Positions 40,033 through 61,796 are shown, counted from the stretch's first letter. The stretch is DNA of 64,000 bases from Malacoraja senta (GCA_038087875.1 CM075995.1:10666001-10730000), one strand, 5' to 3'. Numbers and translations: made by a program. Notes: a model not told the origin generated them from the letters alone.

Positions 40033-40286
40033 TAAACGTGGCACGTTTCTGGAATTTCGGCACAGGCCAGCACCAATCGGCATCCCTCCATCCTAGCTCG
40101 TGATAACAACAAGAAAACCTGTTCATTAACGTGGAAAAGCGAAAACCCATGGATGAATCTTAATTTACGCAGAGAATACTCTGTGAGAGAGGTCCGAATC
40201 ACCTACAGAAGGGATTGCTGCTCTGAACTAATTCTGGGAGCTGAGATCTACATCGGGAGCTCAGCAAATGGGACTTCCAACAATTT
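40033..40286 (+). CDS. F-type lectin exon 3: N-terminal part of FTLD D1, with a +1 frameshift near 40044-40048
   Basis: Acceptor ttcaacAG and donor GTGAGT. Reads (V)NVAR, then after one extra base SGISAQASTNRHPSILARDNNKKTCSLTWKSENPWMNLNLRREYSVREVRITYRRDCCSELILGAEIYIGSSANGTSNN, which contains the FTLD motifs NVA, PW, RxDCC and GAEIxIG. The unshifted frame stops at TGA 40101-40103. Confidence 0.85.
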
Positions 40287-40894
40287 GTGAGTGTCCAGGG
40301 CAAGGGATGGGTCTTTTCCATCGGGGGTGTGGTGGGCAGCCTATCCTTTCTCCAGCTGGGGGAAGGGGGTGCGAGGGTAGAACTGCGGGTAGAAGACAGG
40401 GGTGAGGTATCCATTTACAACAGCAGGAGGAAACCACGTTTACTATAGAGAGGCCATCACAGATGTCCTAGAATAGAAAGGTTCCTAGTGAGGAGTTGCG
40501 GCAGAAACAGATAAATTTGTTGTCGCAGTTGGTGGACTTGCAAGTTGTAGGGAGGGAGGACGTGTATTCCAGAAAAACGTGGGTCATCCCAAGCACTCAG
40601 CTTTGGGTAGGGCTGCATTGTGTAAGGCTGCATTGTCTTTTTCCCCTTCATCTATGTCCTTTGGTCTTCAATTCACCTAATCTGGCCAAGAAACTCTGTG
40701 CCACAACACTATCTATTCCTCTCATGATTCTATAGAAACATAGAAAATAAGTGCAGGAGTAGTCCATTCAGCCCTTCGAATCTGCACCTCCATTCAATAT
40801 GATCACGGCTGATGGCAATATGATTATACACCTCTTTTAGATTACCCCTCATCCTCCTGCAAATCCTCTCTGTACCCATTCCAACTTGACAACA

Positions 40895-42675
40895 TCTATA
40901 TTACTAAAAGTCTCATCTTGACCATTTCCTGTTGCACTGCATATTGATTTTAGAAAAAAAGCTGCCACTTACAGCTGTGATTTTTGGCCATCTTACTCAG
41001 AGTCCCCATCCGCTGGTCAGAACAAGAGGATTTTTCCCATCGATGAAAAATAAAAGACTTATTAATGTTTAAAAAATGTTGAGATTTTCTCTCCTGAAGG
41101 CCACGCCCCTTCCGGAGGGACTACAAAACCCGGAAGTGTGGAGGTGCCTCAGTTCTCTGCAAGATGGGGGAGCGAGAGGTCACAATTCTCAGTCTGAGCT
41201 GTGAATAATACTGAACACATGTCTACTAAATTGTGAGTGGTTTTACTGACTTGTCAGTACCCTTAATGTGGTTTGAAAATGTTTGAAAATGCAAATATGT
41301 ATTTGGGTTTCAAAATGCAAAGTGTGTTTTGGTTTGAAAATGCAAAAGTGTGTTTTGGTTTGAGAATGCTAAAGTTGTCTTGCCTAATTGAAAAGTTGGT
41401 TTAAGAATGTTAAAGTTGCCTTGCCTAATTGAAAAGTTGGTTTGAGAATGCTAAAGTTGCCTTGCCCAATTGAAAAGTAGGTTTGAGAATGCTAAAGTTG
41501 CCTTGCCTGATTGAAAAGTTGGTTTGAGAATGCTAAAGTTGCCTTGCCTAATTGGAAAGTTGATTTGAGAATGCCTTGCCTAATTGAAATGTTGGTTTGA
41601 GAATGCTAAAGTTGCCTTGCCTAATTGAAAAGTTGGTTTGAGAATGCTAAAGTTGCCTTGCCTAATTGAAAAGTTGGTTTGAGAATGCTAAAGTTGCCCT
41701 GCCTAATTGAAAAGTTGGTTTCAGAATGCTAAAGTTGCCTTGCCTAATTGAAAAGTTGGTTTGAGAATGCAAAAGTTGCGTTGCCTAATTGAAAAGTTGG
41801 TTTGAGAATGCAAAAGTTGCGTTGCCTAATTGAAAAGTTGGTTTGAGAATGCAAAAGATGCCTATATAATTAAAAGTCTAATCTTGACCACTTCCTGTTT
41901 GCGCTCTATATTGATTTTAGGAAAATCGCTACCACGTACGATTGTGATTTATACCCATCTTACTCACTCCCCCTCCGCTCATTAGGTGTCGAGGACTTTT
42001 CCCATCGATGAAAAGTAAAAGAGTTATTAGTGTTTAAAAAATGTTGAGATTCGCTCTGCTGTCAATCACGCCATGAAGACCACGCCTCTTCTCGTGAGAG
42101 GGACAATAATACCTGGAAGTGTGGGCGTGGCTCAGTCTCTGCAAGAAGGGGGAGGGGGAGGTCACGACTCTCTGTCTTTAGTGGCCTTGCTCCCTGCTTG
42201 AAATGGTATGAAACTGCATTTGAATTTGCCTGCTTGAAATGGTAGGAAACTGCACTCGAATTTGGTGGCCCTGCACCCTGCTTGAAGTGGTATGAAACTG
42301 CACTCGAATTTGGTAGCCTTGCACCCTGCTTGAAGTGGTATGAAACTGCACTCGAATTTGGTGGCCTTGCACCCTGCTTGAAGTGGCATATAAAGTAATA
42401 GCCGTGTCAACTGCCAGCCCATCTGCCTTGAGTGAGTGAGCTGCCAGCACACCAGGCTTGAGTGACTGAGCCGCCAGCCCAAGAATCCATTCGGCCCACG
42501 ATGTCCATACCAGCCCTCTGGAAACCAGTCCCTTCAGCCCACAACACCCATACTAGCGCTCCAGAAAGCCCCCCACTGGCCACCAATATTGGAATTGGAG
42601 GAGAGGTGGAATATTGTGTTGGGGGACCAGCCCTCCCGTGTGAATCTGGGACCCAACGGGTCCCACTTCGTCTAG
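40895..42675 (+). mobile_element. Non-autonomous Helitron (composite, two 5' modules)
   Basis: 5' TCTATATT; 3' GGGACCC-AAC-GGGTCCC hairpin (42648-42664) then CTAG. Inserted between A and T of a host CR1 (ttgacaaca|tctttcctataac) with no TSD. A second head starts at ~41861. Confidence 0.88.
41357..41861 (+). repeat. 41-bp minisatellite, about 12 copies, inside the Helitron
   Basis: Unit gaaaagttggtttgagaatgctaaagttgccttgcctaatt, for example at 41390 and 41431. A separate 48-bp repeat lies at 42181-42390. Confidence 0.95.
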
Positions 42676-42840
42676 TCTTTCCTATAACATGGTGCCCAGA
42701 ACTGAACACGATACCCTAAATGCGGCCTCACGAACGTCTTATACAACTACTATATGACCTCCTAACTTCTACACTCAATATAGATACAAAATGCTCGAGT
42801 AACTCAGTGGGACAGGCAGCATCTCTGGAGAGAAGGAATG

Positions 42841-42874
42841 GGTGACGTTTCGGGTCGAGATCCTTCTTCAGACT
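42841..42874 (-). ncRNA. Minimal hammerhead ribozyme motif in a Penelope-derived short repeat (42781-42910)
   Basis: The minus strand reads AGU-CUGAAGA-AGGAUCUCGACCC-GAAA-CGUC-ACC: CUGAnGA and GAAA core boxes, stem II, palindromic ACGU stem III, and a GUC cleavage triplet. Confidence 0.6.
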
Positions 42875-43870
42875 TTTGTTTAAACCAGCATCTGCAGTTC
42901 CTTCCTTCACATTCTATATTCAATAACCTGTTTGATGAAGGGCAATGTGTCAAAGCCATTTTGACCACCCTATCTATCTGTGACTCCACCTTCAAGGAAC
43001 CACACACTGCACTTCTAGATCCCACTGCTCTACAACACGCCCCAGAGCCTTCTGTTTTAAATTTCACCAACCATTCCCCAGCCCACCTGATAGATCAAGC
43101 TCCTGCCGCAATTTTTCACAAATAACTTCACAATCTGCAAAACCATCCACCTTTGTATCATCTGCAACCTTCCTAATCTTGTCATGTGTGTTATCTTCCT
43201 AATCATTGATATAAATGACAAACTTAAACGGGCCCAGCATCGAACCTTGAGGCACACCACTAGTCACAGGCCTCCAGTCCGAGAATCAACCCCATCACTC
43301 TCTGCTTCCTTCCATGAAGCCAATGATGTATCCATTCAGCTATCTCTCCTTGGATCCCATGCGATCTAACGTTCGAGAACAGCCTACCATGTAGGACCTT
43401 GTCAAATGTTTTGCTGAACATATAAACAAGATCTACTGCTCTGACCTCATCAACCTCTTTGGATATCTTCCACACACTCAGTCAGATTTGTGAGACATGA
43501 CCTCCCACGTACAAAACCATGTCGACTCTCCCTAATCAGTTCTTGTACATCTAAATGCATGTATATACTATCCCTCAGACTAATCTCCAGTGACTTTCCA
43601 AATACAGATGTTAAGATGACAGCATAATTGTTATGTTATTGTTAGGGACCAATGCGGCTGTCCCATCCTAGACTAAGTATGTTCAGCATTCTAGAAGATT
43701 CTTCTCTCAGCTCCGGAAAAAGAAGGGGAGCCACACAAACCAGAACAACAACCCAACGTTTCACATAACTTGAGGACAAATTCAGCTGGACCACTTCCCT
43801 GGCTCCAGGCGTTTGATGAGTGTGGTATTACAGGTGATGAATCTCACCATGTGACTCCCATATCTTTCAG

Positions 43871-44028
43871 CTGTGGAACCATCCAGAATGGGTCCGAAAC
43901 AATCAGCATCCGATGCGATGGACTCGCGGGAAAATATGTGTTTATTTCGCTCCCAGGAAAAAAGAGAGCACTGAGTATCTGCGAGTTGGAAGTCTTTGCT
44001 TCAAAGGTCCCGGAATTACATTACATAG
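43871..44028 (+). CDS. F-type lectin exon 4: C-terminal part of FTLD D1
   Basis: Acceptor atctttcAG and donor GTAGGT. Encodes CGTIQNGSETISIRCDGLAGKYVFISLPGKKRALSICELEVFASKVPELHYI, matching the FTLD C-terminal pattern C-x-G-x-G-[RK]-YV ... L-x-[LI]-CE-[VL]-EV. Phase 2 to 1. Confidence 0.9.
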
Positions 44029-44439
44029 GTAGGTGCAAACCCCGCTCCATTTCTGGGTGTGCAGCCTTCGGGCCGCAGTCCATACGGAATGGGTGCAGAG
44101 GACCCAGCCTCAATTCCATTACTCCGGCCATTGTACGAGCTCAGACACATTCTCCGCCACGACCTCACTCACGAGCATCCCCAGGTCTGACTCCGTTCTG
44201 GTCACCCCATTGCAGGAAGGAAGTGGAGGTTTTGGAGGGTGCAGAGGGTTTACCAAAATGATTCATAGATTAGGAGGTGTTATCTGTAAGAAGAGGTTAC
44301 ACATACTTGCATTGTTTTCTCTGTCGCATTGGAGGTTGAGGGGAGACCAGATAGAAGTATATAACATTGTGAAAGGCATTAGATAGTCCGGAGCTTTTTC
44401 CACAGGTCGGAAATAGAGTATATACATATATGAATGACC

Positions 44440-45740
44440 ATAAAAGAAAACAAAACTGAAAGGTCTGAAGGTGGAAAAGTCTCCTGAACTGGATGGAATG
44501 CACCCTTGGGCTCTGAAAGAGGTGGCTTCAAAGATTGTGGAGGCATTAACTGATTTTTCACGAATCAGGAGGTGTTCCATATGATTGGAAAATTGCAAAT
44601 ATTACTCTGTTGTACAAGAAGGGAACAAAGCGAAAGAGTGGAAACGATAGGCTAGTTAGCCAGAATTCAGTCGCAGGGCAGATTTTAGCGTCCATCTTAA
44701 AGGATGAGCATCCAGAGTTTTTCGAAGCCCATGATCAAATAGGCCAATAATCAGCATGGTTTTGTTTAAGGGAGACCATGCCTGATGAACCTATTGGAAT
44801 TATATGAGGATGTAAACTGCAGGAATAGACGAAGTATAGTGGTATGTGGTTTGCGTGGATTTGTAAAACGTCTTTGCTAAGGTGCTGCCAGGTGGGTTGC
44901 TGAAGATGATGAGAGCCGATGGTATCAGGGGGAGATACTAGCATGGATAGCAGGTTGACTGGATGACAGAAGGCAAACAGTGTCAATAAAAGGGGCTTTT
45001 TAATGGTCGACTGCAAGTGACTCGACTGCGTGTTCCGCTGCTGTTGATGGTGGGGCCGCTTATCTTCGCGTGTTTATCAATGATTTGGATGAGGGAGTTG
45101 AAGGCTTTGTGGCCAAGTTTGCAGATGACACGAAGATAGGTGGGGGGGGCAGATAGTGTAGAGAAAGCAGGGACTCCGCAAAAAGACTTGGACAGGTCGG
45201 GGGAGTGGGCTGAGAAGTGGCAGATGGAATACAGCGTAGCAAAGTGTGGAGTGATGCATTTTGGCAGAAGTCTGGCGTAGACTATTTTCTAAGTGGGAGA
45301 GAATTCAGGTATCGTGGGGTGCAATGGGACTTGGGAGTGCTGGTGCAGGATTCCTCAAAAGTTAATTTGCAAGTTGAAACGGTAGGAAGGAAGGCAAATG
45401 CAATACTAGCATTTATTTTGAAAGAATACAAAAACAGGGATGCAATGCTGAAGTTTCATAAGGCAATGGTCAGACCACATTTGGAATATTGAGAGCAATG
45501 TTGTGCCCCATATCTGAGGAAGAATGTGCTGGCATTGGAGTGGATCCGTAGGAGGTTTACAAGAATGATCCCATGAATGACTGCAATAATATGTGTGTTT
45601 GATGGCACTGGACATGTACTCATTGGTGCTTAGAAGGATGAGTGGCCACTTCATTGAAACTTATTAAATAGTTATAGGCCTGGATGGAGTAGATGTGGAG
45701 AGAATGCTTCCACTAAGAGGAGAGGCCAGGACCAGACGCC
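44440..45740 (+). mobile_element. Old degenerate CR1 RT region
   Basis: Eroded KSP.LDG.HP, QHGF, FADDTK and VRPHLEY motifs. Confidence 0.75.
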
Positions 45741-45744
45741 ATTG

Positions 45745-46135
45745 TTGGTGTTGTTCATCCTTTGTAGTCGAAGAAGACCATGACTGCAGTGTTTTTGTTT
45801 GTGGGTCCAGATGTGACTGGTGAGACCGATCCAGGCCCGGAATGCTCGCCTGCATATGGGACACAACTGGGTGGGCGCCGCAGTAGAAGCCAAAGTGGCC
45901 CAAGCCCCGCGCGCGGCGTGTTCCTCCGAGCTTCTGTGGTGCGCCCCTTCCCAGCTGCACACGCTCCCGTAGCGATCCTGCTTCGCCTAGTTGGGCTGTA
46001 TGGGGCCTAAAGTCATGACGCGCTTGACTTGGATTAAAGTGAGGGGCAGTTGCGCAAATCGTCAGCCTCACTCTCTCGTCCCGGCCTATCTGGATCCAGT
46101 GGCAAGACATAGTCAAGACGGCTGGCGATAAGTCA
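45745..46135 (-). mobile_element. Internally deleted (bipartite) RTE-derived element
   Basis: RTE C-terminal CPICRRAFRAWIGLTSH..TH and a (CAA)n-like tail, fused directly to an RTE 5'-UTR-like block. Confidence 0.65.
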
Positions 46136-47761
46136 GGATCCAATGTTCTACGTGAACATTGTGCCCTAATTGCGCTCCACGTTGATTTGCTGGGTCCACC
46201 TTCCTACCCGTTGGACCGCCAAATGGTGGTCTACTCCACTCGATGAGTCCTACAGCAAGATTGTTACACCTAAGGTACTGGAAGAGAGAAGGTGGGTGAC
46301 AGTGAGAAAGGGAAGTAAACATGGAATGCACAGGTCCCCGGGTGTTGTACCTCTTGTGAACAGGTTCACCCACTTAAAAAGCTGTCAGGACAGAGGATGT
46401 TGATGCACTGAGCGGCGTACTGGCTTGCGATGCAAAAAGTGCTGTTGAGCCAAAACCAAAGAGGCCGACGTCAGGCAACGCCGTGGTAGTTGGAGACTCC
46501 ATTGTGAAAGGTACGGACATGGGTTTCTGCGGCAACAGACGGGATTCGAGGATGGTGTGCTGTCTCCCTGGTGCCAGGATCCAGGATGTCACGGACAGAG
46601 TGCAGAAAATCCTCAAGGGTGAAGGTGAACAGCCGGATGTTGTAGTGCATGTGGCACAAACGATGTCGGAAAGAAGGGGATGAATATTCTGAAGCATGAC
46701 TTTAGAGAGCTCGGAAAAATGCTGAAAAGCAGGACCTCCAGGGTGGTTATCTCCGGTTTGCATCCAGTTCCTCGTGCTGGCAAGAGCAGGAACAGGGAGA
46801 TACAGGACCTGAATGTGTGGCTGAGGAACTGGTGCAGGAGGCAGCGATTTAGATTCTTCGACCACTGGGATCTGTTTTCGAGTATGGGGGAACTGTACAA
46901 AAGGGATGGATTGCACCTTAACAGGTGGGGGACCGGCATTCTGGCAGGCAGGTTTGCCACTGCGACACAGGTGGTTTTAAACTAAATAAGGGGGGGGGGT
47001 GTCAAATGGGATAGTCAAGGACGGAGTTAAAGGGAAATGGAGTAAAGGGATAGTTAATGACCCCAGAATTAACGGGAAAGAAAGCTCACAAAGGGATAGG
47101 AGAGTATGGCGAAGTGTAATAGGGATCGATGTGAAAGGTGAGATGTGGAAGGAATTAAAAATATTGTATATGAATGTGCGAAGTATAAGAAGTAAAGTAG
47201 ATGAGCTTGAGGCTCAGTTAGAGGTTGGTAGATATGACATTGTGGGGATTACTGAGACGTGGCTGCAGGAGGATCTGGCATGGGAACTTAATATTCAGGG
47301 TTATACATCCTATAGAAAGGACAGGCAGGTGGGCAGAGGAGGGGGTTAGCTCTGCTGGTGAGGGATGGAATTCAGTCCCTTGCGAGGGAAGACATAGGGA
47401 CTGACGAAGTAGAGTCACTGTGGATTGAGTTGAGGAATTGCTAAGGCAAGAAGACACTAATTGGTGTTATATACAGACCCCCAAATAGTAGCCCGGTTGT
47501 AGGGTGTAAGTTGCAGCAGGAGTTAAAACTGGCATGTAACAAAGGTAATGTCACTGTGGTGATGGCGGATTTCAATATGCAGGTATACTGGGAAAATCAG
47601 GTTGGTTCAGGACCCCAAGAAAGAGAGTTTGTAGAATGCCTCCGAGATGGATTCTTAGAGCAGCTTGTAAGGGAGCCGACCAGAGCAAAGGCAATTCTGG
47701 ATTTAGTGTTGTCCAATGAACCAGATTTGATAAGGGAAGTAGAGGTAAAGGAGGTAGTGAT

Positions 47762-48586
47762 GTGCAGGAGTGGGCGCCGTTTGTATGGCTGCCTGCCTGC
47801 AGTCTGTCCTCTAACTTTTTTATTGTCTAAAACATTATTTTTTTTTGGAGTTTATTCTTTCTATGTGTGGGGGGGGGGGGGGACTGTTTTAACCCCAGTC
47901 CTAGCTGGTCGGAGATGCGGTTTTCCTCCAAATCGCATCCCCGATCTCCCCATGCGGCCTTCCATCGGGCTGGAGCGGCGTTCCTGCCGGGACCACAGCT
48001 TCGGCGGCACAGCGCTGGGACACCAACAAGGAGCGGGCGATGCCTTGCCGGGTTGCCGCTCCGGAGTGCTGTGACCGCCGACCACCAACATCGAGCAGCC
48101 GCGGTCTGCGGTCTGTGGTTTGAGGGCATCCCGCCGCGGGCGGGCGGCGCTGCATCGGAAGCACCGCGGAGTCGAAGCTCCAACTGGCACGGCCTAAAGT
48201 CCATGGGCGTCGCAGTCTCCGGGGAAGGAGCGGCCGCTCCAGACATTTCTAAGCTGCTGAGGACCTTTCCACCCGATGCGGGTGGGGCCTATAATCATCG
48301 GGCTGCCGTTGCGGCGACTGGCTGCAGTGGCCTCAAACTGGCCCCGACCTCGGGTGGACTAGGAGGAGGAGGAGGACTGGACATTTTGGTGCCTTCCCTC
48401 ACAGTGGAGAGTGTAGATCCTACTGTGGGGGGATGTTCGTGTTGAATTTCCTATAGTGTGTTGTGTCATTTTTTTCTACTTCTTTTTATTATTTGTATGG
48501 ATAGTCTTCCCTGTAAAGCACTTTGGCTTTTGATTGAAATCGACTGAAAAGTGCTATATAAATAAACTTACTTTACATTACTTTAC
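47762..48586 (+). mobile_element. GC-rich non-coding retroposon with an L2-type 3' end
   Basis: tgat duplication (47758-47761 and 48587-48590). Ends ctgtaaagcactttgg...aagtgctatataaataaa + (TTACTTTAC)-like tail. Confidence 0.65.
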
Positions 48587-50603
48587 TGATCATAATATGA
48601 TTAGTTTTAATCTGCAATTTGAGAAGGAGAAGGTTAAATCGGAAGTGTCAGTGATGCAGTTGAACGAAGGGGACTATAAAGGCATGAGGGAGGAGCTGGC
48701 CAAGGTAGACTGGAAAGGGATCCTAGCAGGAATGATGGTGGAACAGCAATGGCAGGAATTTCTGAGCAAAATCCGGAAGACACAGGATCATTTCATTCTA
48801 AAAAGGAAGAAAGATTCTAAGGGGAGTAGGAGGCAACTGTGGCTGACAAGAGAAGTTAGGGATAGAATAAATCTAAAAGAAAAGATGTATAACACAGCAA
48901 AGAGTAGCCGGAATCCAGAGGATTGGGAAACGTTCATAGGACAACGGAAGGAAACAAAACGGGCAATATGGGCTGAAAAGATGAAGTACGAGGGGAAGTT
49001 GGCCAGGAATATAAAGAAGGACAGTTAAAGCTTATTTAGATATGTTAAGGGAAAAAGAATAGCAAAGTCAAATGTGGGTTCCTTGAAGGCAGACACGGGT
49101 GAAATTATTATGGGGAACAAGGAAATGGCAGAAGAGTTGAACAAGTACTTTGGATCTTTCTTCACTAAGGAAGACACAAACAATCTCCCAGAAGTACTGG
49201 AGGACAGAGGATCTAAGGGGGTCGAGAAACTGAGAGAAATTTTCAATAGGCGAGAAATAGTATTGGGTAGGCTAATGGGACTGAAGGATGATAAATCCCC
49301 TGGGCCTGATGGTCTGCATCCCAGGGTCCTCAGGGAGATGGCTCTAGAAATAGTGGACGCATTGGTGATCATTTTCCAATGTTCAATAGATTCAGGATCA
49401 GTTCCTGTAGATTGGAGGACAGCTAATGTTATCCCACTTTTCAAGAAAGGAGTGAGAGAGAAAACGGGGAATTACAGACCAGTTAGCCTGATTTCAGTGG
49501 TGGGAAAGATGCTGGAGTCAATTATTAAAGAGGTAATAATGGGGCATTTGGATAGCAGTGAAAGGATTGATCCAAGTCAGCATGGATTTATGAAAGGAAA
49601 ATCATGCTTGACTAATCTTCTGGAATTTTTTGAGGATGTGACAAGTAAAATGGATGAAGGAGAGCCAGTGGATGTAGTGTATCTAGACTTTCAGAAAGCC
49701 TTTGATAATGTCCCGCACGGGAGACTGGTGACTAAAATTAGAGCACATGGTATTGGGGGTAGGGTGTTGACATGGATAGAAAATTGGTTGGGTGACAGTA
49801 AGCAAAGTGTAGGAGTGAACAGGTCCTTTTCAGAATGGCAGGCAGTGGCGAGTAGAGTGCCGCAAGGTTCGGTGTTGGGGCCGCAACTGTTTACCATTTT
49901 TAGTAATGATTTGGAAGAGGGAATTAGGAGCAACACTCGCAAGTTTGCAGATGACACAAAGCTGGGTGGCAGTGTGAACTGTGAAGAAGATGTTAGGAGG
50001 TTGCAGGGTTGTTGAGTGGACAAGTTGAGTGAGTGGGCAGATGTGTGGCAGATGCAGTATAATATAGATAAATGTGAGGTTATCCACTTTGGTGGCAAAA
50101 ACAAGGGGCAGATTATTATCTCAACAGGTCCTTTTCAGATTGGCAGGCAGTGGCGAGTAGAGTGCCGCAAGGTTCGGTGTTGGGGCTGCAACTGTTTACC
50201 ATTTTTAGTAATGATTTGGAAGAGGGAATTAGGAGCAACACTCGCAACTGTGAAGAAGATGTTAGGAGGTTAGAAACATAGAAACATAGAAAGTAGGTGC
50301 GAGAGTAGACCACCAGGCCCATCGAGCCCGCACCGCCATTCGCTCATGGCTGAACACTAAACAGACACCCTTACCCACAAACAGTAGACACAAGACACAG
50401 AACACAAGACACTACCCTCCCCTTTATATCGCTATCACCCCTCTCCACCCCAAGAACCGCGTGATCTCCTGGGGGAGGCAAAAAACCGGATAAAAACCCA
50501 GGTCCAATTCGGGAAAAAAATCCGGGAAATTCCTCTCCGACCCCAATCCAGGCGATCGACACTTGTCCAGGAGATCACTCAGGTCTTACTATACTAACCA
50601 TAC

Positions 50604-53498
50604 CTAGGTCCATATCCCTGCCCTCTCCCCGTAGCCCCTTATCCCCTTGGCAGCTAAAAAACCATCTATTTTAGACTTAAATATATTTAATGTTTCTGCT
50701 TCCACTGCTCCCTGGGGCAGTGAATTCCATAAATTAACCACCCTCTGGGTGAAGAAGTTCTTCCTCATCTCAGTTTTAAAAGAGCCCCCTCTTATTCTAC
50801 AACTATGTCCCCTAGTTCTAGTTTCCCCGATCATTGGGAACATCCTCGGTGCATCCACCCGATCAAGGCCCCTCACGATCTTATATGTTTCAATGAGATC
50901 GCCTCTCATTCTTCTAAACTCCAAAGAGTAGAGTTCCAGCCTACTTAACCTTTCCTCATATGTCAATCCCCTCATTGCAGGAATTAATCTTGTAAACCTT
51001 CGCTGCACTGCCTCCAGGGCCAGTACATCCTTTCTTAAGTATGGACCCCAGAACTGTACAGAGTATTCCAAATGTGGTCTCACTAATACTGTGTACAGCT
51101 GCAGCAAGACCTCCGTGTTTTTATACTCAATCCCCCTAGCAATAAAGGCCAAAACTCCATTGGCCTTCCTGATTGCTTGCTGCACCTGCATACTAACTTT
51201 TAGTGATTCATGTACTACTACCCCTAGATCCCTTTGTGTTGCATTACAACGCAGCTCCACCTCATTTAGAAAATAACTTGCCCTATCATTTTTTTTCCCA
51301 AAGTGAATGACTTCACATTTATTAGTATTAAATTTCATCTGCCAAGTTGTTGCCCACTCACCTAGCTTATCTATATCCTTTTGCAGACTCTTCCTATCCT
51401 CCTCATCCCCTACTTTTCCTCCCATTTTTGTATCGTCCGCAAATTTTGATATATTACACTTGGTTCCCTCCTCCAAATCATTTATATAAATTGTGAACAA
51501 CTGGGGTCCCAGCACCGACCCTTGCGGAACCCCGCTAGTTACCGGTTGCCATCCCGAGTATGAACCATTTATCCCCACTCTCTGCTTCCTATTTGTTAGC
51601 CAATCCTCTACCCATGCTAATATATTACCCCCAATCCCATAATTTTTTATTTTTAGCAATAGTCTCTTATGTGGCACCTTGTCAAAAGCCTTTTGGAAGT
51701 CCAAGTATACCACATCCACCGGTTCCCCTTTATCCACCCGGGTTGTTACTTCCTCAAAGAATTCGAGCAGATTCGTTAAACAGGACTTCCCCTTCACAAA
51801 ACCATGCTGGTTCTGTCCGATGAAGTCATGTTTATCCAAGTGCCCCGTTAGTGTTTCTTTAATAATTGTCTCTAACATTTTACCCACCACCGATGTTAGA
51901 CTAACCGGTCTATAGTTACCCGCCTTCTGTTTACTTCCTTTTTTAAATATAGGTGTTACATTGGCCATTTTCCAATCCACTGGGACCGTTCCTGCCTCCA
52001 GGGAGTTTTGGAAAATTATCACCAATGCATCCACAATCCCCACCGCTATCTCCCTCAAGACCCTTGGATGTAATCCATCAGGCCCAGGGGATTTATCCTC
52101 CTTCAGTCTCATTAATTTCCCTAATACCACCTCCTTGGTGATCTTAATAGTATTTAGCCCCTCCATTCCTACCGCCCCCTGTTTATCCAGCGTTGGAATA
52201 TTTTTTGTGTCTTCTATGGTGAAGACTGATACAAAATACTCGTTTAATGCCTTTGCCATTTCCATGTTCCCCACCAACAACTCTCCAGTCTCACCCTCCA
52301 ATGGACCAACGTTCACCTTAGCCACCCTTTTTCTTTTTATATAGCTATAAAAACTCTTACTATTAGTTTTTATGTTGTTAGCTAAATTCCTTTCATAGTC
52401 TATTTTCCCCGTCTTAATTAATCTCTTAGTTATTTTTTGCTGACCTTTAAATGCTTCCCAATCCTCTACCCTCCCACTATCTCTAGCTACCTTATATGCC
52501 CTTGCCTTCAGCCGAATACTATCCTTTATAGTTTTACTGAGCCATGGCTGACTGTTCTTTCCCTTACCCCTTTTTTTCTTCATAGGAATAATTTTTTCTT
52601 GAAGGTTATACAGTAGATCCTTAAACGTACACCACTGCTCATGTACCGTCTTATTCTTGAGTCTGCTATCCCAGTCAACTTTGATCAGCTCAGTCCTCAT
52701 ACCTTCATAATCCCCTTTATTTAGACTAAGTACCCTAGCCTGAGTTTCAACCTGCTCTCCTTCTATTTGAATATGGAATTCGACCATATTGTGGTCACTT
52801 GTTCCCAACGAGTCCCTAACTATGACATTTTTAATTAATCCTGCTTCATTACACAGGACCAGATCCAAGATTGCCTCCCTCCTTGTCGGTTCTGTGACAT
52901 ACTGTTCTAGGAACCCGTCTCTAATACATTCTATAAACTCTTCCTCTAGTCTACCCTGCCCAGTTTGGTTTGCCCAATTAATATGAAAATTGAAGTCCCC
53001 CATGATTACAGCAGTTCCCTTTTTACATGCGTCAACTATTTGCAGATTTATGTTCTGACTAACAGCGTCACAGCTATTTGGAGGTCTATAAATTACACCC
53101 ACTAGTGTTTTTTTCCCCTTGTTATTCTCTATCTGTACCCAAGCTGTTTCACTATCCTGATCCTTCAACGCAATATCCTTCCTCTCTATTGCCGTTATTC
53201 CCTCCCTTATTAAAAGGGCCACTCCTCCTCCCTTTCTTTCCTGTCTATCTTTTCTAATTGTCGAGTACCCCTCTATATTTAACTCCCAATCCTGATCCCC
53301 TTGCAGCCATGTCTCCGTAATGGCCACGATATCATAACTATATGTACTTAATTGCACCGTTAATTCATTTATCTTATTTCGAATACTCCGTGCATTTAGA
53401 TACAGCACTTTCAGATGATTTTTACTACCCTTCCTTTCTGTTTTTGCCCCTTTTACATCTAGAGCTTTATCTTCACACATTCTGGATCCTCCTGTCAC
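50604..53498 (-). CDS. CR1 ORF2, about 960 aa (APE endonuclease + RT)
   Basis: Motifs LNARSI, ITETW, MGDFN, SDH, QHGF, LDFQKAFD, PQGSVLGP and FADD, all intact. Confidence 0.93.
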   Translation of the reverse strand: MTGGSRMCEDKALDVKGAKTERKGSKNHLKVLYLNARSIRNKINELTVQLSTYSYDIVAITETWLQGDQDWELNIEGYSTIRKDRQERKGGGVALLIREGITAIERKDIALKDQDSETAWVQIENNKGKKTLVGVIYRPPNSCDAVSQNINLQIVDACKKGTAVIMGDFNFHINWANQTGQGRLEEEFIECIRDGFLEQYVTEPTRREAILDLVLCNEAGLIKNVIVRDSLGTSDHNMVEFHIQIEGEQVETQARVLSLNKGDYEGMRTELIKVDWDSRLKNKTVHEQWCTFKDLLYNLQEKIIPMKKKRGKGKNSQPWLSKTIKDSIRLKARAYKVARDSGRVEDWEAFKGQQKITKRLIKTGKIDYERNLANNIKTNSKSFYSYIKRKRVAKVNVGPLEGETGELLVGNMEMAKALNEYFVSVFTIEDTKNIPTLDKQGAVGMEGLNTIKITKEVVLGKLMRLKEDKSPGPDGLHPRVLREIAVGIVDALVIIFQNSLEAGTVPVDWKMANVTPIFKKGSKQKAGNYRPVSLTSVVGKMLETIIKETLTGHLDKHDFIGQNQHGFVKGKSCLTNLLEFFEEVTTRVDKGEPVDVVYLDFQKAFDKVPHKRLLLKIKNYGIGGNILAWVEDWLTNRKQRVGINGSYSGWQPVTSGVPQGSVLGPQLFTIYINDLEEGTKCNISKFADDTKMGGKVGDEEDRKSLQKDIDKLGEWATTWQMKFNTNKCEVIHFGKKNDRASYFLNEVELRCNATQRDLGVVVHESLKVSMQVQQAIRKANGVLAFIARGIEYKNTEVLLQLYTVLVRPHLEYSVQFWGPYLRKDVLALEAVQRRFTRLIPAMRGLTYEERLSRLELYSLEFRRMRGDLIETYKIVRGLDRVDAPRMFPMIGETRTRGHSCRIRGGSFKTEMRKNFFTQRVVNLWNSLPQGAVEAETLNIFKSKIDGFLAAKGIRGYGERAGIWT

Positions 53499-53587
53499 AT
53501 TTTGATTTTCCGTTTCCCCACTGATACCCTGCTCTATTTCCTCTACCCCTGCCGTTATTACCCCCCTTGATACCTCCCCCCCGCTAC

Positions 53588-54541
53588 TTAGTTTAAAGAC
53601 CTCTCTACTGCCCTAGTTATATGATTTGCCAGGACCCCAGTCCCAGCACCGTTCAGGTGAAGTCCGTCCTTACAGAACAGATCCCCCCTGTCCCAGTACT
53701 GGTGCCAGTGGCCCAAGAAACCAAACCCATTTTTCCCACACCAGTCTTTGAGCCACGCATTCAGCTTTTTAATTTTTCGTACCCTCGCCGATTTGGCCCG
53801 TGGCTCAGGTAGCAATCCGGAGATCAGTACCCTCGAGGTTCTGCTTTTTAATTTATTCCCTAACTGCTCAAACTCGTTCAGCAGATCCTCCTTCCTCGTC
53901 CTTCCTATGTCATTGGTCCCCACATGGACCACGACCACTGGATCCTCCCCCTCACTCTGCAAATTTCTCTCCAGCATCGCAGAGATATCCTTAACCCTAG
54001 CACCGGGTAGGCAACACAGCCTTCGGGACATGTTCTGCTGGCCGCAGAGAACCTTATCTACCCCCCGAATAATACTATCCCCTATCACCACGGCATTTCT
54101 TCTAACTCCCCCCTCTTGAATGGCCCCCTGATCCACGGTGCTGCAGCCAGGTTGCTCATCCCTCCCACAGCCCCTGATCCCGTCCTCACATTGAGTAAGA
54201 GCCTCGGTCATGCTCGTCAGGGACAAGGGCTGTGGCTCCTGCCGCATCTCCTCCTGGTTCCCCCTACCTGCCTCGCTTATGGCCACACCTTCCTTTCCCT
54301 GCTCACTAACTACTGAATTAGTTAAACTGGTCGGTGTGACCATCCCCTGGCACAAAACATCCAGGTAATACTCCCCCTCCCTGATGCACCGCAGCGTATG
54401 AAGTTGGGTCTCCAGCTCATCAATGCGGAGCTCGAGTTCCGCTAGCTTCAAACACTTACTGCAGCTGTAGGGATCATCTACATCAATGGTGTCGACAATT
54501 TCCCACATCTCACAGTATTGGCACATCTCCTGGCCACCCAT
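53588..54541 (-). CDS. CR1 ORF1, 317 aa (zinc-finger-like + coiled coil + SGNH esterase)
   Basis: Motifs CQYC...CSKC, IGDSIIR, HVGTND and DGLHLN; no stops. Confidence 0.9.
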   Translation of the reverse strand: MGGQEMCQYCEMWEIVDTIDVDDPYSCSKCLKLAELELRIDELETQLHTLRCIREGEYYLDVLCQGMVTPTSLTNSVVSEQGKEGVAISEAGRGNQEEMRQEPQPLSLTSMTEALTQCEDGIRGCGRDEQPGCSTVDQGAIQEGGVRRNAVVIGDSIIRGVDKVLCGQQNMSRRLCCLPGARVKDISAMLERNLQSEGEDPVVVVHVGTNDIGRTRKEDLLNEFEQLGNKLKSRTSRVLISGLLPEPRAKSARVRKIKKLNAWLKDWCGKNGFGFLGHWHQYWDRGDLFCKDGLHLNGAGTGVLANHITRAVERSLN

Positions 54542-55859
54542 CTTATATAAGTAATTAACTGGTCCTATTAAGAATAAAGTCTGCCTGTGCTTGGCTTCTA
54601 CTTTTCAACTGTTTTTCCCCCCTCTGACTCACTTCTCTCCTCCCACTCGGGCTAGAGGTTGCAGGGTTGTTGAGTGGACAAGTTGAGTGAGTGGGCAGAT
54701 GTGTGGCAGATGCAGTATAATATAGATAAATGTGAGGTTATCCACTTTGGTGGCAAAAACAAGGGGCAGATTATTATCTCAACAGGTCCTTTTCAGAATG
54801 GCAGGCAGTGGCGAGTAGAGTGCCGCAAGGTTCGGTGTTGGGGCCGCAACTGTTTACCATTTTTAGTAATGATTTGGAAGAGGGAATTAGGAGCAACACT
54901 CGCAAGTTTGCAGATGACACAAAGCTGGGTGGCAGTGTGAACTGTGAAGAAGATGTTAGGAGGTTGCAGGGTTGTTGAGTGGACAAGTTGAGTGAGTGGG
55001 CAGATGTGTGGCAGATGCAGTATAATATAGATAAATGTGAGGTTATCCACTTTGGTGGCAAAAACAAGGGGCAGATTATTATCTCAATGGGGTTAGGTTA
55101 GGTAAAGGGGAGGTACAGCGAGACCTGGGAGTCCTTGTACACGGATCACTGAAAGTTGGCGTGCAGGTACAGCAGGCAGTAAAGAAAGCTAATGGAATGT
55201 TGGCCTTCATAACAAGAGGATTTCAGTATAGGAGTAGAGAGGTTCTTCTGCAGTTGTATAGGGCTCTGGTAAGACCACATCTGGAGTATTCCGTACAGTT
55301 TTGGTCTCAATTTGAGGAACGACATCCTTGTGATTGAGGCAGTGCAGCGTGGGTTCACGAGATTGATCCCTGGGATGGCGGGACTGTCATATGAGGAAAG
55401 ATTGAAAAGTCTTGGCTTGTATTCACGGGTTTAGAAGGATTAGGGGAGATCTTACAGAAACATATAAAATTTTAAAAGGACTGGACAAGCTAGATGCAGG
55501 AAAAATGTTCCCAATGTTGGGCGAGTCCAGAACCAGGGGCCACAGTCTTAGAATAAAGGGGAGGCCATGTAAGTGTGAGGTGAGAAAAAACTTTTTCAGC
55601 GAGAGAGTTGTGAATTTGTGGAATTCCCTGCCACAGAGGGCAGTGGAGGCCAAATCCCTGGATGGATTTAAGAGAGAGTTAGATAGAGCTGTCGGGGCTA
55701 GTGGAATCAAGGGATATGGGGAGAAGGCAGGCACGGGTTATTGATTGGGGACGATCAGCCATGATCACAATGAATGGCGGGGCTGGCTCGAAGGGCCAAA
55801 TGGCCTCCTTCTGCACCTATTTTCTATGTTTCTACGCTTATTCCACCGGATCCAGTCTT

Positions 55860-56310
55860 CACCTTTCCTGAATAAGGTAGTAGCCACAAACCAGTGGAGG
55901 TTTGCATTTGGTGTTTTCCTTCACCCCTCCAGGGTGATATATGGAGGACGTCTGTGCGTGGCTTTGTTTATCGTGGGGAGACTGGTGCACAGACAGCCAC
56001 CCCACGGTCCTTGACAGATCCGGGACAGGATCCAGTGGCATGGAGTCCAAGACGACCGGTGACCCTTTTCTGCCGCAGCCTTCATCCACTTTCCTAGCCG
56101 TTGTGACGCTCCACTAAGGTCAGACATCATCCTCTGCCCATTCCACCACTGAGGTCTTGGTTGGATTGCTCTTTGTCAGATACCTCCCACTCGACCTTAC
56201 AGCCTTGGATGGCCCTATGAGGAGCATAGCTCCAGACGGCGTCGCTCTCAGGATCTCAGGTCCACACAAGCTTCTCCACCACGATAAGGTGACAATCCAC
56301 GGTGAAGCTA
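55860..56310 (-). mobile_element. RTE-clade LINE 5' UTR fragment
   Basis: The minus strand begins tgtcaccttatcgtggtggagaagcttgtgtggacctgagatcctgagagc, resembling RTE/Rex3 5' ends as I recall them. It shares ggatccagtggca..caagacg with 46092-46120. Confidence 0.5.
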
Positions 56311-57442
56311 TGACCTCCCCAGAGGCCATAGCTTCACAATGAAGGGACGCATCTTTAGAAAAGAGAGAAGGAAGAATGTATTTAGTCAGAGGGTGGTGAA
56401 TCTGTGGAATGCATTGCCACAAAAGGTTGTGCAGGCAGAGTCGATTGATATTTTTAAGGTGGAGATTGATAGGTTATTAATTTGTAAGAGTGTTGAGGGG
56501 TACAGGTAGAACGCTGGAGAATGGGTTGCGAGGAATCGATTTGCCACGATTGAATGGCAGAGTATATTTCATGGTCCGAATGGTCTAATTCAGCTCCCAC
56601 AACATATGAACTTATTATTAGATACCATAGCTTTCAGGTTATAGGAAAGACGTTTAAAGCTGTGAGATAGACACAAAATCCTGGTGTACGTCAGCGGGAC
56701 AGGAAGCGTCTCTGGAGAGAAGGAATGGATGACGCTTGTGGTCCAGACCCTTCTTTAGACTGAGTCTGCAGGGTCTCGAACCGGAACGTTACTAATTCCT
56801 TCTCTCCAGAGATGCTGCCTGTCCCTCTGAGTTACTCCAGCATTTTGTGTCTATTTTCGGTTTAAACCAGCATCTGCAGTTCCTTCCAACACGTTTGAAA
56901 CTGTGGGACAAGTGCTTTACACAGAGTGTGATGGGAGCCTGGAAGGTGCTGCAGTTGGTGGCGTGGGGTGGTGGAAGCAGATACGATAGTGATGTTTAAA
57001 GGGTTGTAGATATGCAGGGAATAGAGATTAGTTTAAATTGGTATCATGCTCGGCACCGACATTGTGGGCCGAAGCGCCTGTTCCTGTGCCGTGCTGTACA
57101 ATGTTCGAGGAACTCTGTTCCAAGATCCAAATTCATCCACAAACACGGATCTTCTCCCTGCCCTAGTCAAGGAAGGGCATGCGCTACAATGCTGAGAACT
57201 ATATTCTGCACATCGTAGCTTCCCCTTTGCTGTATCTATTGAATGAGTTTGACGATGGCATTTGTGTATATTATTATCTGATCTGACTGGATAGCGCGTA
57301 AAACAAAGCTATTCACCGCACGTTTACACGTGACAATAAGCCTAATCCCAAGCACCTGGTTTGAACGGGAGGCTGGTCAATTGTAGGGGTGCACTTGACC
57401 TTTAACGCCTCTTGTTGACGGAATGACTTTTACCTCCAACAG

Positions 57443-57722
57443 TAAACCTGGCCTTGAGTGCCTGGGCGACACAGTCAAGCACCAGGAAGTCCGCCGAAGC
57501 TTATCTCGCCATTGATGGCCGGGCGAGTACATTAAGGAAGTTGAAATCATGTACTGAAACAAACCCGACCAACGATCCCTGGTGGATGGTCGATCTGAAT
57601 GGAATCTACCAGGTGTCTGTTGTTCGAATCACCAACCGAAGAGACTGCTGCTCTGAACAGCTCCGGGGAGCTGAGATCCGCATCGGGAACTCGTCCATGG
57701 ACGGTGGGATGTCCAACCAACT
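57443..57722 (+). CDS. F-type lectin exon 5: N-terminal part of FTLD D2
   Basis: Acceptor cctccaacAG and donor GTGAGT. Encodes (V)NLALSAWATQSSTRKSAEAYLAIDGRASTLRKLKSCTETNPTNDPWWMVDLNGIYQVSVVRITNRRDCCSEQLRGAEIRIGNSSMDGGMSNQ, with fucolectin motifs AIDG, PWWxVDL, ITNRxDCC and GAEIRIGNS. Confidence 0.93.
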
Positions 57723-59643
57723 GTGAGTGTCCAGTGGCGAGGAACAAAGACCAGCTCATTTCCAATCTCTGCAGGGATTCAGTGGGTCAGGCAGCTTCTG
57801 GGAAGAAATTCACAGGCATAGTGTCGATTCGAGACAGTTGTTCAGACTGAGAGAGTGGCGTTGAGTTGGGGGGGGGGGAGTGGGGGTGGAAGTAGGGTGC
57901 TTCAAAAGAGAGGTGGGAGTGGGTAAAATTCTGCCAAGTGATAAAAGGATACAGGTAAGATGAGATTGACAGATGTGTTGAGTCCGTGGATCGAGGCAAG
58001 AGTTTTGACGAAACGTGCCGACCAAGACATTTTACAAGACATTGGTGAGGCCACATTTGGAATATTGTGTTCAGATCCTATTTACGAGGATGTTTCCAGG
58101 ATTCGAGGGCCTGAGATATCGGGAGAGCTTGAGCAGGCTAAAACTTTATTCCTTGGAGTGATCATATAGAGGTGTTCAAAATAGCCATATAACCATAACA
58201 GCACGGAAACAAGCCATCTCGGCCCTTCAAGTCCATGCCGAACACTTTTTTTAAATTACATCCCCCTAGTCCCATCTACCTGCACTCAGACCATAACCCT
58301 CCATTCATTTTCCGTCCATATACCCATCCAATCTATTTTTAAAGGATAAAATCGAACCTGCCTCCACCACTTCCACTGGAAGCTCATTCCACACAGCTAC
58401 CACTCTCTGAGTAAAGAAGTTCCCCTAATGTTACCCCTAAACTTCTGTCCCTTAATTCTCAAGTCATGTCCCCTTGTTTGAATCTTCCCTACTCTCAATG
58501 GGAAAAGCTTATCCACGTCCACTCTGTCTAACCCGCTCATATGAGGAAATAATGAGGAAAGGATCATGTAAATGTAAGTTCTTTTGCCCAGAGGTGGGGA
58601 ATTGAGAAACCGAGGACATAAGTTTAACGAGAGGGGAGGAGGGTGGGGGGGTAAGATTTAATGAGAACCTGAGTGATGATTTTTTAATGAAAGAGTAGTG
58701 GATGCATGCAACGAGCTGCCAGTACTTGCGGCAGGTACTATCATATCACTTGGTACATGAATAGGATTGAATTTACAGGTGATGGGCAAATCGCGGCAGA
58801 TGGGACTAGTACAGTTGGGCATGTTGGTCAGCGTGTGCAAGTTAGGCCGATGGGCCTGTTTCCAGAGAAACAAGGAACTGCCAATACTCTGACACAACGA
58901 GGCCATCCCGGGAAAAAGTGGTGGCAGTAGATTGCGATGGCAAGTCGCCTGGTCTACTGGAAAAGTGCAATAAGTATTGGCAGTTCCTTGTTTCTCTGCT
59001 TTTCAAACTGTGAGGCTGTAGCGATTGTTTGGAGCATTGGTTGTTCCTCCGGCAGTGAAGATGTCATGGGAAATGCGTTCACTTGACCATTGAATTCCAC
59101 AATTCCAAGTCATACCCACACCCTACTGCCACTACTTTCCCTTCCTCCCTCCCACGCTGATGCACACACACATCTCTCACTATCTGCCACTACCGCGGTA
59201 TCCCAGTCACCCATCTCAGTGCACTCACCTCCCATACTCCATCTCCTAATTTCCTTTTATTCTCTCCGAACCTCACCCAATCCCCCCCCTCCCTTTTTCA
59301 CCTCTATCCTTTATCACTTTTTCCATCCATCTGCACCTCACCTATCACTTGCTACTCCTTCTCTCTTTCCCAACTTTCTCCACGCTACTCCATCAGTCGG
59401 AGAATGGGTCCCCACCCAAACCGCCACCTGTCCATTCCCTCCGCATATCCTGCCTGACCAGCTGCTTCTCCAGCAATTTGTGTTTTGATCCCGAGATTTC
59501 TTCATCCTTTTATCTCTTGTTCACCATTCGTGGTGACGGAGACGGGCGGTGGTCCCGCGTACTCAGCGCCCCGGCACCACCTTTCAGCAGGTAACTGAGT
59601 CCCAGTCACCAGTCATTCACGGTGTCATGCCCGTTTCTTTCAG

Positions 59644-59804
59644 CTGTGGGACAATCCAGGTAATATCTGCTCAGCGACTCACCTTCGTCTGTGAGGATTT
59701 CACGGGTCGATTTGTGAGTGTCATTATCCCGGGCAAGAATAAAACACTGACACTGTGTGAGGTGGAGGTCTATGGTGAGAAACTGGCTTCGCTGAACATT
59801 GAAG
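59644..59804 (+). CDS. F-type lectin exon 6: C-terminal part of FTLD D2
   Basis: Acceptor gtttctttcAG and donor GTATGT. Encodes CGTIQVISAQRLTFVCEDFTGRFVSVIIPGKNKTLTLCEVEVYGEKLASLNIE; LTLCEVEVYG is the fucolectin C-terminal signature. Confidence 0.93.
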
Positions 59805-60044
59805 GTATGTTCCTGTACACATCCCATGCATTCAGTCAAGGGCACTCTGTAGGGGCTGTGTTTGGAGTACTGTGTTCAGTGTTGGTCACCTACTATAGGA
59901 AAGATGACTTTAAACAAAAACTCCAGAGAAGATTAGCAAGGATAACAGAACTCACTTGGTCTTTACATTTCACCCCATCAGTCTGCACAAGTTAGGGGAC
60001 ATTCCTATTTCCCTCCACCTCAGTGCGGACATTGGATTTTGTTT

Positions 60045-60990
60045 CGTTTTAGTTTAGTTTAGTTTATTGTCACGTGTACCGAGGTACAATGTAAACCTTC
60101 GTTGCATGGTAACCAGTCAGCGGAAAATCAATACATGATTACGATCCAGCCATCGACATTGCACAGCGACATGATAAAATGAATAACATGAATAACATTT
60201 ATTGCAAGATAAAGCCAGTACAATCTGATGAAAGATCGCCAGAGGGTGTCCAGTGAGGTCGATAGTAGTTCAGGACTGCTCTCCAGTTATTGTTACCAAG
60301 GTGCAGCTGCCAAATAACTGTCACTGAATCTGGAGTTGTGCATTTACACACTTCTATACGTTTTGCCCGATGGGAAAGGGGAGAAAAGGGAGTGGCCAGG
60401 GTGCGACTTGTCCTTGATTATACTGGTGGGCTTGCCAAGGCAGCGTGAGGTTGAAATTGAGTCAATGTAAAGGTGGTTGGATTGCGTGATGGTCTGAGCT
60501 GCGTCAGCAAATCTGAGCAATTTCCTACAGGGTCGTGGATGGAGCTGTTTCCAAACCATGCTGTGGTGCATCCCGATAAAAAAGCTTTCTACCTGGCATC
60601 TGTAGAGGTTGGTGACAATTGTCGGGGACATGCCGAACTTCGAAGGAAGTAGAATAGTGGGTATGCTTTCTTGGCCATTGCTTCAATATGGGTGGTCCAC
60701 GAGAAGGTGTTGGTGATACTTACTCCTTGGAATTTAAAGCTTTAAACCATCTCCTCTTCTGTGCCAGCAATGCAAACTTGGGTATGTGTACCGCTTCCCT
60801 ACCTGAAGTCGATCAGCATCTCCTTTGTCTTGCTGACATTTAGAGAAAGGTTGTTGTCTGGACACTGGGTCACGACGTTCCCATTCTCCTTTTACTCACT
60901 GTTATCATTATTTGATATCCGGCCCACAATGGTGGTGTCGTCTGCGAATTCGTAAATTGAACCGGATTTGTGCATGGCTGCACACAGAGT
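60045..60990 (-). mobile_element. Rex1/Babar-like RT fragment
   Basis: FADDTT-like segment at ~60930, then LYRCQVES...AAQTITQ...RCLGK..SIIKD.SHPGHSLFSP.PSG..YRS. Confidence 0.75.
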
Positions 60991-61244
60991 ACTGGAGGAC
61001 CTGAGTGGATTGGGCAGAATCTATGGAGTGGATGCACAGGGTCTGAGGAAGGATCCTAACCCGAAATGCTATCTGTCCATTCCCACACCAGATGCTGCAT
61101 GAACTGCTGAGTTCCTCCAGCACTTTGGGTTTTGCTTCAGGAATGGAGATTCCCCTCTCTGGAGGTCGGATGGAAATCCGCAGCTTGAAGAAGTGACCTG
61201 ATGTTTAATCCTTATTGATGAGTGAACTCCCTCCTCCCCAACAG

Positions 61245-61530
61245 TGAACGTGGCTTTGCGGGGCACTGCCTCTCAGTCCAGCACCCATCGTTCTGGTGTA
61301 GCCTCCAAAGCCATTGATGATAATACCAAAACAGATGGGAGCTCGGGTATGTGTTCGCAAACAGAACCAACCAACGATCCTGGGTGGAGGGTCGATTTGA
61401 AGATATCCCACGTCGTGACCTCAGTAATCATCATGAACAGGGAGGACTGCTGCAGTGAACAGCTTCTGGGAGCTCAGGTCTACATCGGGGATTCACTGAT
61501 GCACAATGGGAACGATAACAATAACAGACA
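61245..61530 (+). CDS. F-type lectin exon 7: N-terminal part of FTLD D3 (gene continues beyond the window)
   Basis: Acceptor ctccccaacAG and donor GTGAGT. Encodes (V)NVALRGTASQSSTHRSGVASKAIDDNTKTDGSSGMCSQTEPTNDPGWRVDLKISHVVTSVIIMNREDCCSEQLLGAQVYIGDSLMHNGNDNNNR. No matching C-terminal exon was found before 64000. Confidence 0.92.
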
Positions 61531-61796
61531 GTGAGTACTCAGTGTTAAACCATGGCTCGGGGATTCGGGACATTTTACTGTTCTTGAGGCACCGCATACA
61601 TCATGCAAATGTAGAGGTTTTGCTGAATGGAACATAGAATGTAGAACAGAACAGCACATGAACTATCCCTTCTGCCCAACCCGTCCATGCTGAGCAAGAT
61701 ACCCCATTGAATCGAGTCTGTCCTGCCTGCTTTGGCTCATATTCCTTAAACCTTTCCATGAAACCGTCCAAGTGTCTATTAAATGCTGTTTTTGAA

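What the first reader, a model, noticed from the sequence alone, without database searches (positions are those of the whole stretch)
40033..61530. All three FTLDs have lost two of the three canonical fucose-binding residues
Established: the fucose-recognition motif is H-x26-R-x-D-x4-R/K. Seen, with exact 26-residue spacing: D1 L-x26-RRDCCSE-L, D2 E-x26-RRDCCSE-Q, D3 Q-x26-REDCCSE-Q. The His and the last Arg are replaced in every domain, while the first Arg, the Asp and the CC pair are kept. The Ca-site motif also varies (ARDNN, AIDGR, AIDDN). Inference: a non-fucose or non-carbohydrate-binding FTLD subfamily, with a different pocket in each domain.
Basis: partly seen in the sequence, partly recalled or inferred. 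Interest (0 to 1): 0.7.

Follow-up and report, generated by a model that had tools for sequence, protein, structure and literature searches.

The report
Skate lectin with remodelled sugar pocket
This skate gene encodes a lectin whose three visible sugar-binding domains have lost the residues that normally grip fucose; such losses are known in this family, but they appear to be the rule in skates and rays, whose lectins may recognise something else.

Summary
All three F-type lectin domains (FTLDs) keep Arg-x-Asp-Cys-Cys but lack the His and the last Arg (L/R/L, E/R/Q, Q/R/Q). They also lack the methyl-pocket aromatic. This is not special to the gene. Reviews describe such domains (Drosophila furrowed, oyster bindin), and 106 of 661 FTLDs scored here show the same pattern. 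The little-skate orthologue shares the D2 and D3 states, so these losses are inherited. The wider result is lineage-level: 1 of 51 batoid domains from four orders has the full triad, against 231 of 317 in ray-finned fish; no sharks were sampled and short proteins were under-sampled. A frameshift in the window's D1 exon is absent from a short-read contig, so it is probably an assembly error. Against an intron baseline, D2 is constrained and D1 evolves faster than neutral. Caveats: the start codon reads GTG (unchecked), and the gene runs past the window, where a relative has a canonical domain. Best reading: a functional secreted tandem FTL with remodelled, probably non-fucose pockets. No ligand is shown.

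The parts
26972..27036 (+). Signal-peptide-like first coding exon (AG..GT, 65 nt, ends in phase 1, compatible with D1a). First codon reads GTG where Leucoraja P0006 has Met and Narcine P0034 begins M-I-L-L.
   Evidence: start codon not checked in reads
40033..40286 (+). D1 5' exon (triad L/R/L, Ca word ARDNN, CDR2 shortened by 6 profile positions). One extra base near 40046 shifts the frame in the assembly; the X1 contig lacks it.
43871..44028 (+). D1 3' exon (158 nt, phase 2 to phase 1, open)
57443..57722 (+). D2 5' exon (triad E/R/Q, AIDGR; 280 nt, open; 85 of 92 residues identical to Leucoraja LOC129706219)
59644..59804 (+). D2 3' exon (161 nt, open; 50 of 53 identical to LOC129706219)
61245..61530 (+). 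D3 5' exon (triad Q/R/Q, AIDDN; 286 nt, open). Its 3' exon is not in the window.
61793..61942 (-). Inverted, truncated relic of a D1-type 5' exon with its acceptor flank (82% to the D1a flank over 68 nt); out of frame, stops before the Arg-x-Asp-Cys-Cys part

Best explanation
The gene is a member of a skate/ray cluster of secreted, tandem F-type lectin genes, each domain split over two exons. Shown: the F-type fold and the Arg-x-Asp-Cys-Cys loop are kept, while His52, Arg86 and the Phe45 methyl pocket are replaced; in batoids this is the normal state. Inferred: with two of three hydrogen-bond donors for the fucose 4-OH gone and no methyl pocket, these domains bind free L-fucose weakly or not at all. 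They would use the same loop-ringed face for other surface ligands (other glycans or proteins). Inferred: it acts as a multivalent recognition protein in mucus or serum, with D2 a constrained module and D1 a fast-changing, specificity-tuning module whose CDR1-3 loops diversify among copies.
For: Triad states are shared with the Leucoraja orthologue (D2 ERQ, D3 QRQ), its paralogue (ERQ) and Rhinoraja LOC144607535 (QRQ). Batoids have the full triad in 1 of 49 domains (13 proteins), or 1 of 51 with Pristis, against 231 of 317 in ray-finned fish. All exons are open with compatible phases except one extra base, which the X1 contig lacks at full depth (19.8 of 19.8, no other difference over 791 bases). 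Identity to P0006: intron read-through baseline 178/217; D2 135/145 (p 0.003); D1 83/131 (p 0.0002); D3a 76/94 (p 0.87). The AlphaFold model of the D2 paralogue P0010 is confident over the domain and matches 1K12 (E 3.3e-12, TM 0.80 by target). In one organism-B contig the flank and strand core of D1a align while the CDR1-3 part does not reach 80%. An FTP-domain protein is reported in catshark skin mucus (PMC10707392, passages).
Against: No binding data exist. No RNA evidence was obtained. The first codon of the signal exon is GTG and was not checked in reads. D1 has lost conserved structural letters that Leucoraja keeps (AIDGN to ARDNN, WW to WM, TNR to TYR, last Arg to Leu), and its end branch is 0.6 against 0.25. 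D3a evolves at the neutral rate. Against the second paralogue P0010, D2's constraint is not significant (132/145 vs 82/96, p 0.21). D1's fast rate may partly reflect paralogy or gene conversion, since several D1-like copies exist. X1 may be the source of the assembly, so it is not independent, and X2 and X9 do not cover the place. The D3 orthologue in Rhinoraja is followed by a canonical HRR domain. Batoid domains are partly near-copies (14 RRQ), so the counts are not independent.
Confidence: 0.55

Rival explanations
1. Still a fucose lectin overall: the atypical domains keep weak, avidity-boosted binding to fucosylated glycans, or act as spacers, while a canonical domain beyond the window does the binding.
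For: Rhinoraja LOC144607535 begins with the D3 orthologue (73% identity; tree support 99) and continues RGP, HRR, QRN. Mixed canonical/atypical arrays are common in the proteins. Arg79, Asp and Cys-Cys are kept. Fucosylated glycans are reported as common on skate mucus proteins (PMC10707392 passage).
Against: The Leucoraja model P0006 ends after D3 with no canonical domain. 12 of 13 batoid proteins scored have none. Phe45 is lost too. The CDR5 Glu, recalled from Khairnar 2019 as able to stand in for the His, is absent from D1 and D2 and present in only 3 of 46 batoid loops against 196 of 294 in ray-finned fish.
Confidence: 0.2
2. This copy, or its D1, has recently become non-functional in this species; the conserved D2 reflects past selection only.
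For: GTG in place of the start ATG; structural substitutions in D1; D3a at the neutral rate; an inverted D1 relic nearby shows birth-and-death turnover; no database protein was listed as encoded by the window.
Against: The only frameshift is absent from the X1 contig. There are no stops in the five FTLD exons and the splice sites are intact. D1 diverges more than neutral introns, which decay alone cannot give. The triad losses in D2 and D3 predate this lineage.
Confidence: 0.15
3. The batoid FTLDs are non-binding structural or adhesive repeats (protein-protein or homophilic contacts) and have no glycan ligand.
For: The furrowed FTLD has two of three triad residues replaced (PMC12221842 section 8). 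The same fold in factor V C2 lacks the triad and binds phospholipid (PMC5712786 passage). Marsupial FTLDs show 0 of 22 full triads, mostly QRQ/QRE.
Against: The replacements are mostly polar (Arg, Gln, Glu), unlike the aliphatic ones in furrowed. Arg79 is kept in 46 of 49 batoid domains. Variation in D1 concentrates in the loops around the pocket.
Confidence: 0.1

Closest known systems
F-type lectins AAA (PDB 1K12) and MsFBP32 (PDB 3CQO)
   Same: Fold, Arg-x-Asp-Cys-Cys loop, 26-residue spacing, tandem domains
   Different: His52, Arg86 and Phe45 equivalents are replaced in all three domains; the Ca word is altered in D1 and D3
Leucoraja erinacea LOC129706219 and LOC129706245 (uncharacterised gene models)
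   Same: Same exon order; D2 91-94% identical; ERQ and QRQ triads
   Different: Leucoraja D1 keeps the last Arg (LRR) and AIDGN; D1 is only about 63% identical; Met at the start of the signal exon
Pacific oyster bindin FTLDs
   Same: Tandem FTLDs with a mid-domain intron, isoforms lacking the triad, accelerated change around the pocket (PMC5712786 passages)
   Different: Bindin is a sperm acrosomal protein with shown positive selection; here the tissue is unknown and selection is inferred from a protein-level proxy
Drosophila CG9095/furrowed FTLD
   Same: Two of three triad residues replaced
   Different: Furrowed has aliphatic replacements; by recall it is a multidomain membrane protein. Here the replacements are mostly polar and no other domain type is in view.
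Marsupial FTP-domain proteins (Monodelphis LOC103103854, Sarcophilus)
   Same: Q/R/Q-type triads; 0 of 22 canonical
   Different: Separate clade in the tree, so probably an independent loss; they mostly keep the Phe45 aromatic (18 of 22)

Membership tests
F-type lectin domain family | F-type jelly-roll fold and sequence homology | tested here: met
   Pfam PF22633 above cut-off in all three 5' exons; phmmer to 3CQO and 1K12; model of the 91%-identical paralogue P0010 matches 3CQO and 1K12 first. The window's own spliced protein was not folded.
F-type lectin domain family | Vicinal Cys82-Cys83 and Arg79-x-Asp81 | tested here: met
   RRDCC, RRDCC, REDCC
Canonical fucose-binding FTL | His-x26-Arg-x-Asp-x4-Arg/Lys triad | tested here: not met
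   L/R/L, E/R/Q, Q/R/Q
Canonical fucose-binding FTL | Aromatic methyl pocket (AAA Phe45) | tested here: not met
   Deleted in D1, Arg in D2, Gly in D3; aromatic in 215 of 230 canonical ray-finned domains
Canonical fucose-binding FTL | Ca-binding motif h2DGx | tested here: inconclusive
   D2 AIDGR keeps DG; D1 ARDNN and D3 AIDDN do not; such replacements are called frequent in PMC12221842
Canonical fucose-binding FTL | Fucose-inhibitable binding | not testable with these tools
   needs recombinant protein
Secreted vertebrate FTL | Signal peptide with ATG start, expression | tested here: inconclusive
   Hydrophobic exon in phase with D1, but first codon GTG; expression not assessed
Pentraxin-fusion FTL (X-PTX type) | C-terminal pentraxin domain | tested here: inconclusive
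   No PF00354 listed for the skate homologues; the gene runs past the window
Bindin-like diversified FTL | Positive selection on pocket loops | tested here: inconclusive
   D1 diverges about 2.2 times the intron baseline; no codon-based test; paralogy not excluded

The most novel reading that the evidence does not exclude
Batoids rebuilt nearly their whole F-type lectin cluster into a non-fucose recognition family early in their history. In this gene a constant domain (D2) is paired with a hypervariable, multi-copy N-terminal domain (D1) under diversifying selection, making a germline-encoded variable receptor for microbes or gametes, a vertebrate parallel to oyster bindin; marsupials converged on the same Q/R/Q pocket.
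Probability: 0.2. Interest if true: 0.7.

Novelty: new variant of a known kind. Interest (0 to 1): 0.35.

Why it matters
The finding as stated is ordinary: atypical FTLDs are described, and about half of the domains sampled deviate from the triad. What would matter is the lineage pattern. If skates and rays have almost no canonical FTLD, 'fucolectin' annotations in these genomes mislead, and the repeated RRQ, ERQ and QRQ pockets are ready targets for finding what else this fold binds. A constrained D2 beside a fast-evolving D1 gives a direct test of divided roles in a tandem lectin.

Tried and rejected
No whole genome is held for this window, so the 3' end of the gene was not followed. No RNA holder was listed among 24 runs; this is no evidence on expression. 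Runs X2 and X9 did not cover the frameshift site. The second X1 contig at the D1 acceptor first looked like an intact paralogue; its letters match the inverted relic in the window, so that reading was rejected. The idea of a cationic, polyanion-binding face is not supported: loop charge is +3, +3 and -2, and 38 of 313 ray-finned domains reach +4 or more. The D1 frameshift as proof of a pseudogene was rejected. The first intron baseline used 7 pieces. Four more gave 97/122 identical, so the baseline stays near 81%; a multi-copy LINE piece, a piece spanning a frame change and weak hits (E 44 or more) were left out. D1's excess loses significance if the true baseline is 72% or less. No shark FTLD was identified: none among the named hits or the 20 proteins looked up. 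The careful tree did not finish (the quick IQ-TREE tree was used). With all 583 rows FastTree needs 2 changes for the batoid label, not 1. Earlier findings of the scan: none. Khairnar 2019 and Mahajan 2018 are not held. No complex prediction was run.

Full report
Setting. The window is repeat-rich animal DNA. Its closest proteins are little-skate gene models, LOC129706219 (P0006, 92% to D2) and LOC129706245 (P0010, 91%), so the source is most likely a skate. A six-frame profile scan finds three FTLD 5' exons, two 3' exons and one weak inverted relic. A short hydrophobic exon at 26972-27036 matches residues 97-118 of P0006. All six exons have AG/GT ends and compatible phases, except D1a. D3's second exon is not in the window.

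Observation. The triad positions read L/R/L, E/R/Q and Q/R/Q with 26-residue spacing. The alignment of D2 to 1K12 places them on His52, Arg79 and Arg86. The 2025 review prints the spacing as 24, but 572 of 661 domains scored here have 26. The aromatic at the AAA Phe45 position is also absent (deleted, Arg, Gly), whereas 215 of 230 canonical ray-finned domains have it.

Is the gene intact? As assembled, D1a is 254 nt and shifts frame near 40046. One contig of run X1 spans the 791 bases laid with no substitution and lacks one base at 40046, at the full depth of that place (19.8 of 19.8). X1 may be the assembly's own source, and X2 and X9 do not cover the site, so this is one witness; an assembly error is the simplest reading. 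The first codon of the signal exon is GTG where P0006 has Met and the Narcine protein starts M-I-L-L; this was not checked in reads.

Selection, by proxy. No orthologous coding DNA was available. The Leucoraja model reads through several intron pieces, which give a neutral baseline of 178/217 identical residues from 7 pieces; four further pieces gave 97/122. D2 is 135/145 identical (p 0.003), D1 83/131 (p 0.0002) and D3a 76/94 (p 0.87). Minimum nucleotide changes per codon are 0.06-0.08, 0.44 and 0.20, against 0.20 for introns. Against P0010, D1b is still fast (33/52 vs 82/96, p 0.003) but D2's constraint is not significant (p 0.21). The baseline pieces were found by similarity, which biases it upward; this makes the D2 test conservative and the D1 test generous. 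In organism B one contig aligns over 66 bases at the D1a acceptor and over the strand core (8 differences in 94), but not over the 118 window bases between, which hold CDR1-3; other contigs show similar joints. Paralogy or conversion may explain part of D1's divergence.

How unusual? Among 661 scorable domains (of 724 found, in 163 proteins, biased to multi-domain proteins), 330 have the full triad and 106 show the window's pattern. PMC12221842 (passages and section 8 read) and PMC5712786 (passages) describe furrowed with two of three residues replaced, oyster bindin isoforms without the triad, and frequent Ca-site changes. They also give the Arg-Asp salt bridge and the Cys-Cys disulfide, which can explain why those letters stay. 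Khairnar 2019 was seen only as a reference entry; from recall it reports about a third of FTLDs as atypical and most His replacements as abolishing binding.

The lineage pattern. With named proteins, full triads number 1 of 49 in batoids, 231 of 317 in ray-finned fish, 26 of 80 in birds, 35 of 60 in amphibians, 21 of 22 in reptiles, 18 of 28 in coelacanth and 0 of 22 in marsupials. Adding Pristis gives 1 of 51 over four batoid orders. In a 98-row tree without the triad columns, all 52 batoid rows form one group (SH-aLRT 97). FastTree on 583 rows needs 2 label changes against 51.9 for shuffles. Limits: the queries were batoid; one search covered 305-973 residues and listed 120 of 1593 hits; short single-domain fucolectins and sharks are unsampled; many rows are tandem near-copies; all are automatic gene models. 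D3's orthologue opens Rhinoraja LOC144607535, whose third domain is the one canonical batoid domain, so this gene may hold a canonical site past the window.

Print. Searches for fucolectin+skate (3 papers), fucolectin+ray+batoid (0), fucolectin+stingray+venom (0) and F-type lectin with shark or elasmobranch terms (25 of 4,863 listed) showed no account of a batoid-wide loss. PMC5712786 only lists skate as having the motif, and PMC10707392 (passages) reports an FTP protein in catshark mucus. Most subscription papers, including Bishnoi 2015 and Khairnar 2019 and their supplements, were not seen and may cover this.

Mechanism and verdict. Shown: fold (model of the paralogue P0010), residue losses, their sharing among batoids, open exons. 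Inferred: weak or no L-fucose binding, secretion, use of the same loop face for another ligand, constant D2 with variable D1. I give this 0.55; residual or downstream fucose binding 0.2; recent pseudogene 0.15; non-glycan structural repeat 0.1. The gene-level finding is a known kind of variation; the batoid-wide pattern and the D1/D2 contrast are the parts worth following. Interest 0.35.

Noticed in passing
window 61793-61942, - strand: Inverted, truncated D1-type exon relic in the intron after D3a; its 5' coding part resembles Leucoraja D1 more than the window's own D1 does.
   Followed up: partly
window 26973-26975: GTG at the expected start codon; the whole signal exon is also fast-changing (10 of 21 residues differ from P0006).
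   Followed up: partly
window 32826-39068: About 6 kb of GA-rich tandem arrays in intron 1, ending about 1 kb before D1a. GA microsatellites precede bindin FTLD exons, but none were listed before D2 or D3, so this is probably coincidence.
   Followed up: no
proteins P0029, P0040, P0045, P0068: Marsupial tandem FTLD proteins have 0 of 22 canonical triads, mostly QRQ/QRE, apparently an independent loss.
   Followed up: partly
proteins P0003, P0202, P0219, P0231: Skate cluster paralogues repeat an R/R/Q pocket (14 of 40 rajiform domains) and keep Phe45; a good candidate for a new specificity.
   Followed up: no
window 2317-6198, 15468-18506, 22535-25806, 49029-50012, 50607-54604: Long retroelement-like ORFs (endonuclease/reverse-transcriptase-like by eye; 864, 1013 and 1002 codons among them), some within the gene's introns.
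   Followed up: no
window 13769-14710 and 41355-41863: Minisatellites: 90 bp x 6.8, 20 bp x 10.4 and 41 bp x 12.6.
   Followed up: no
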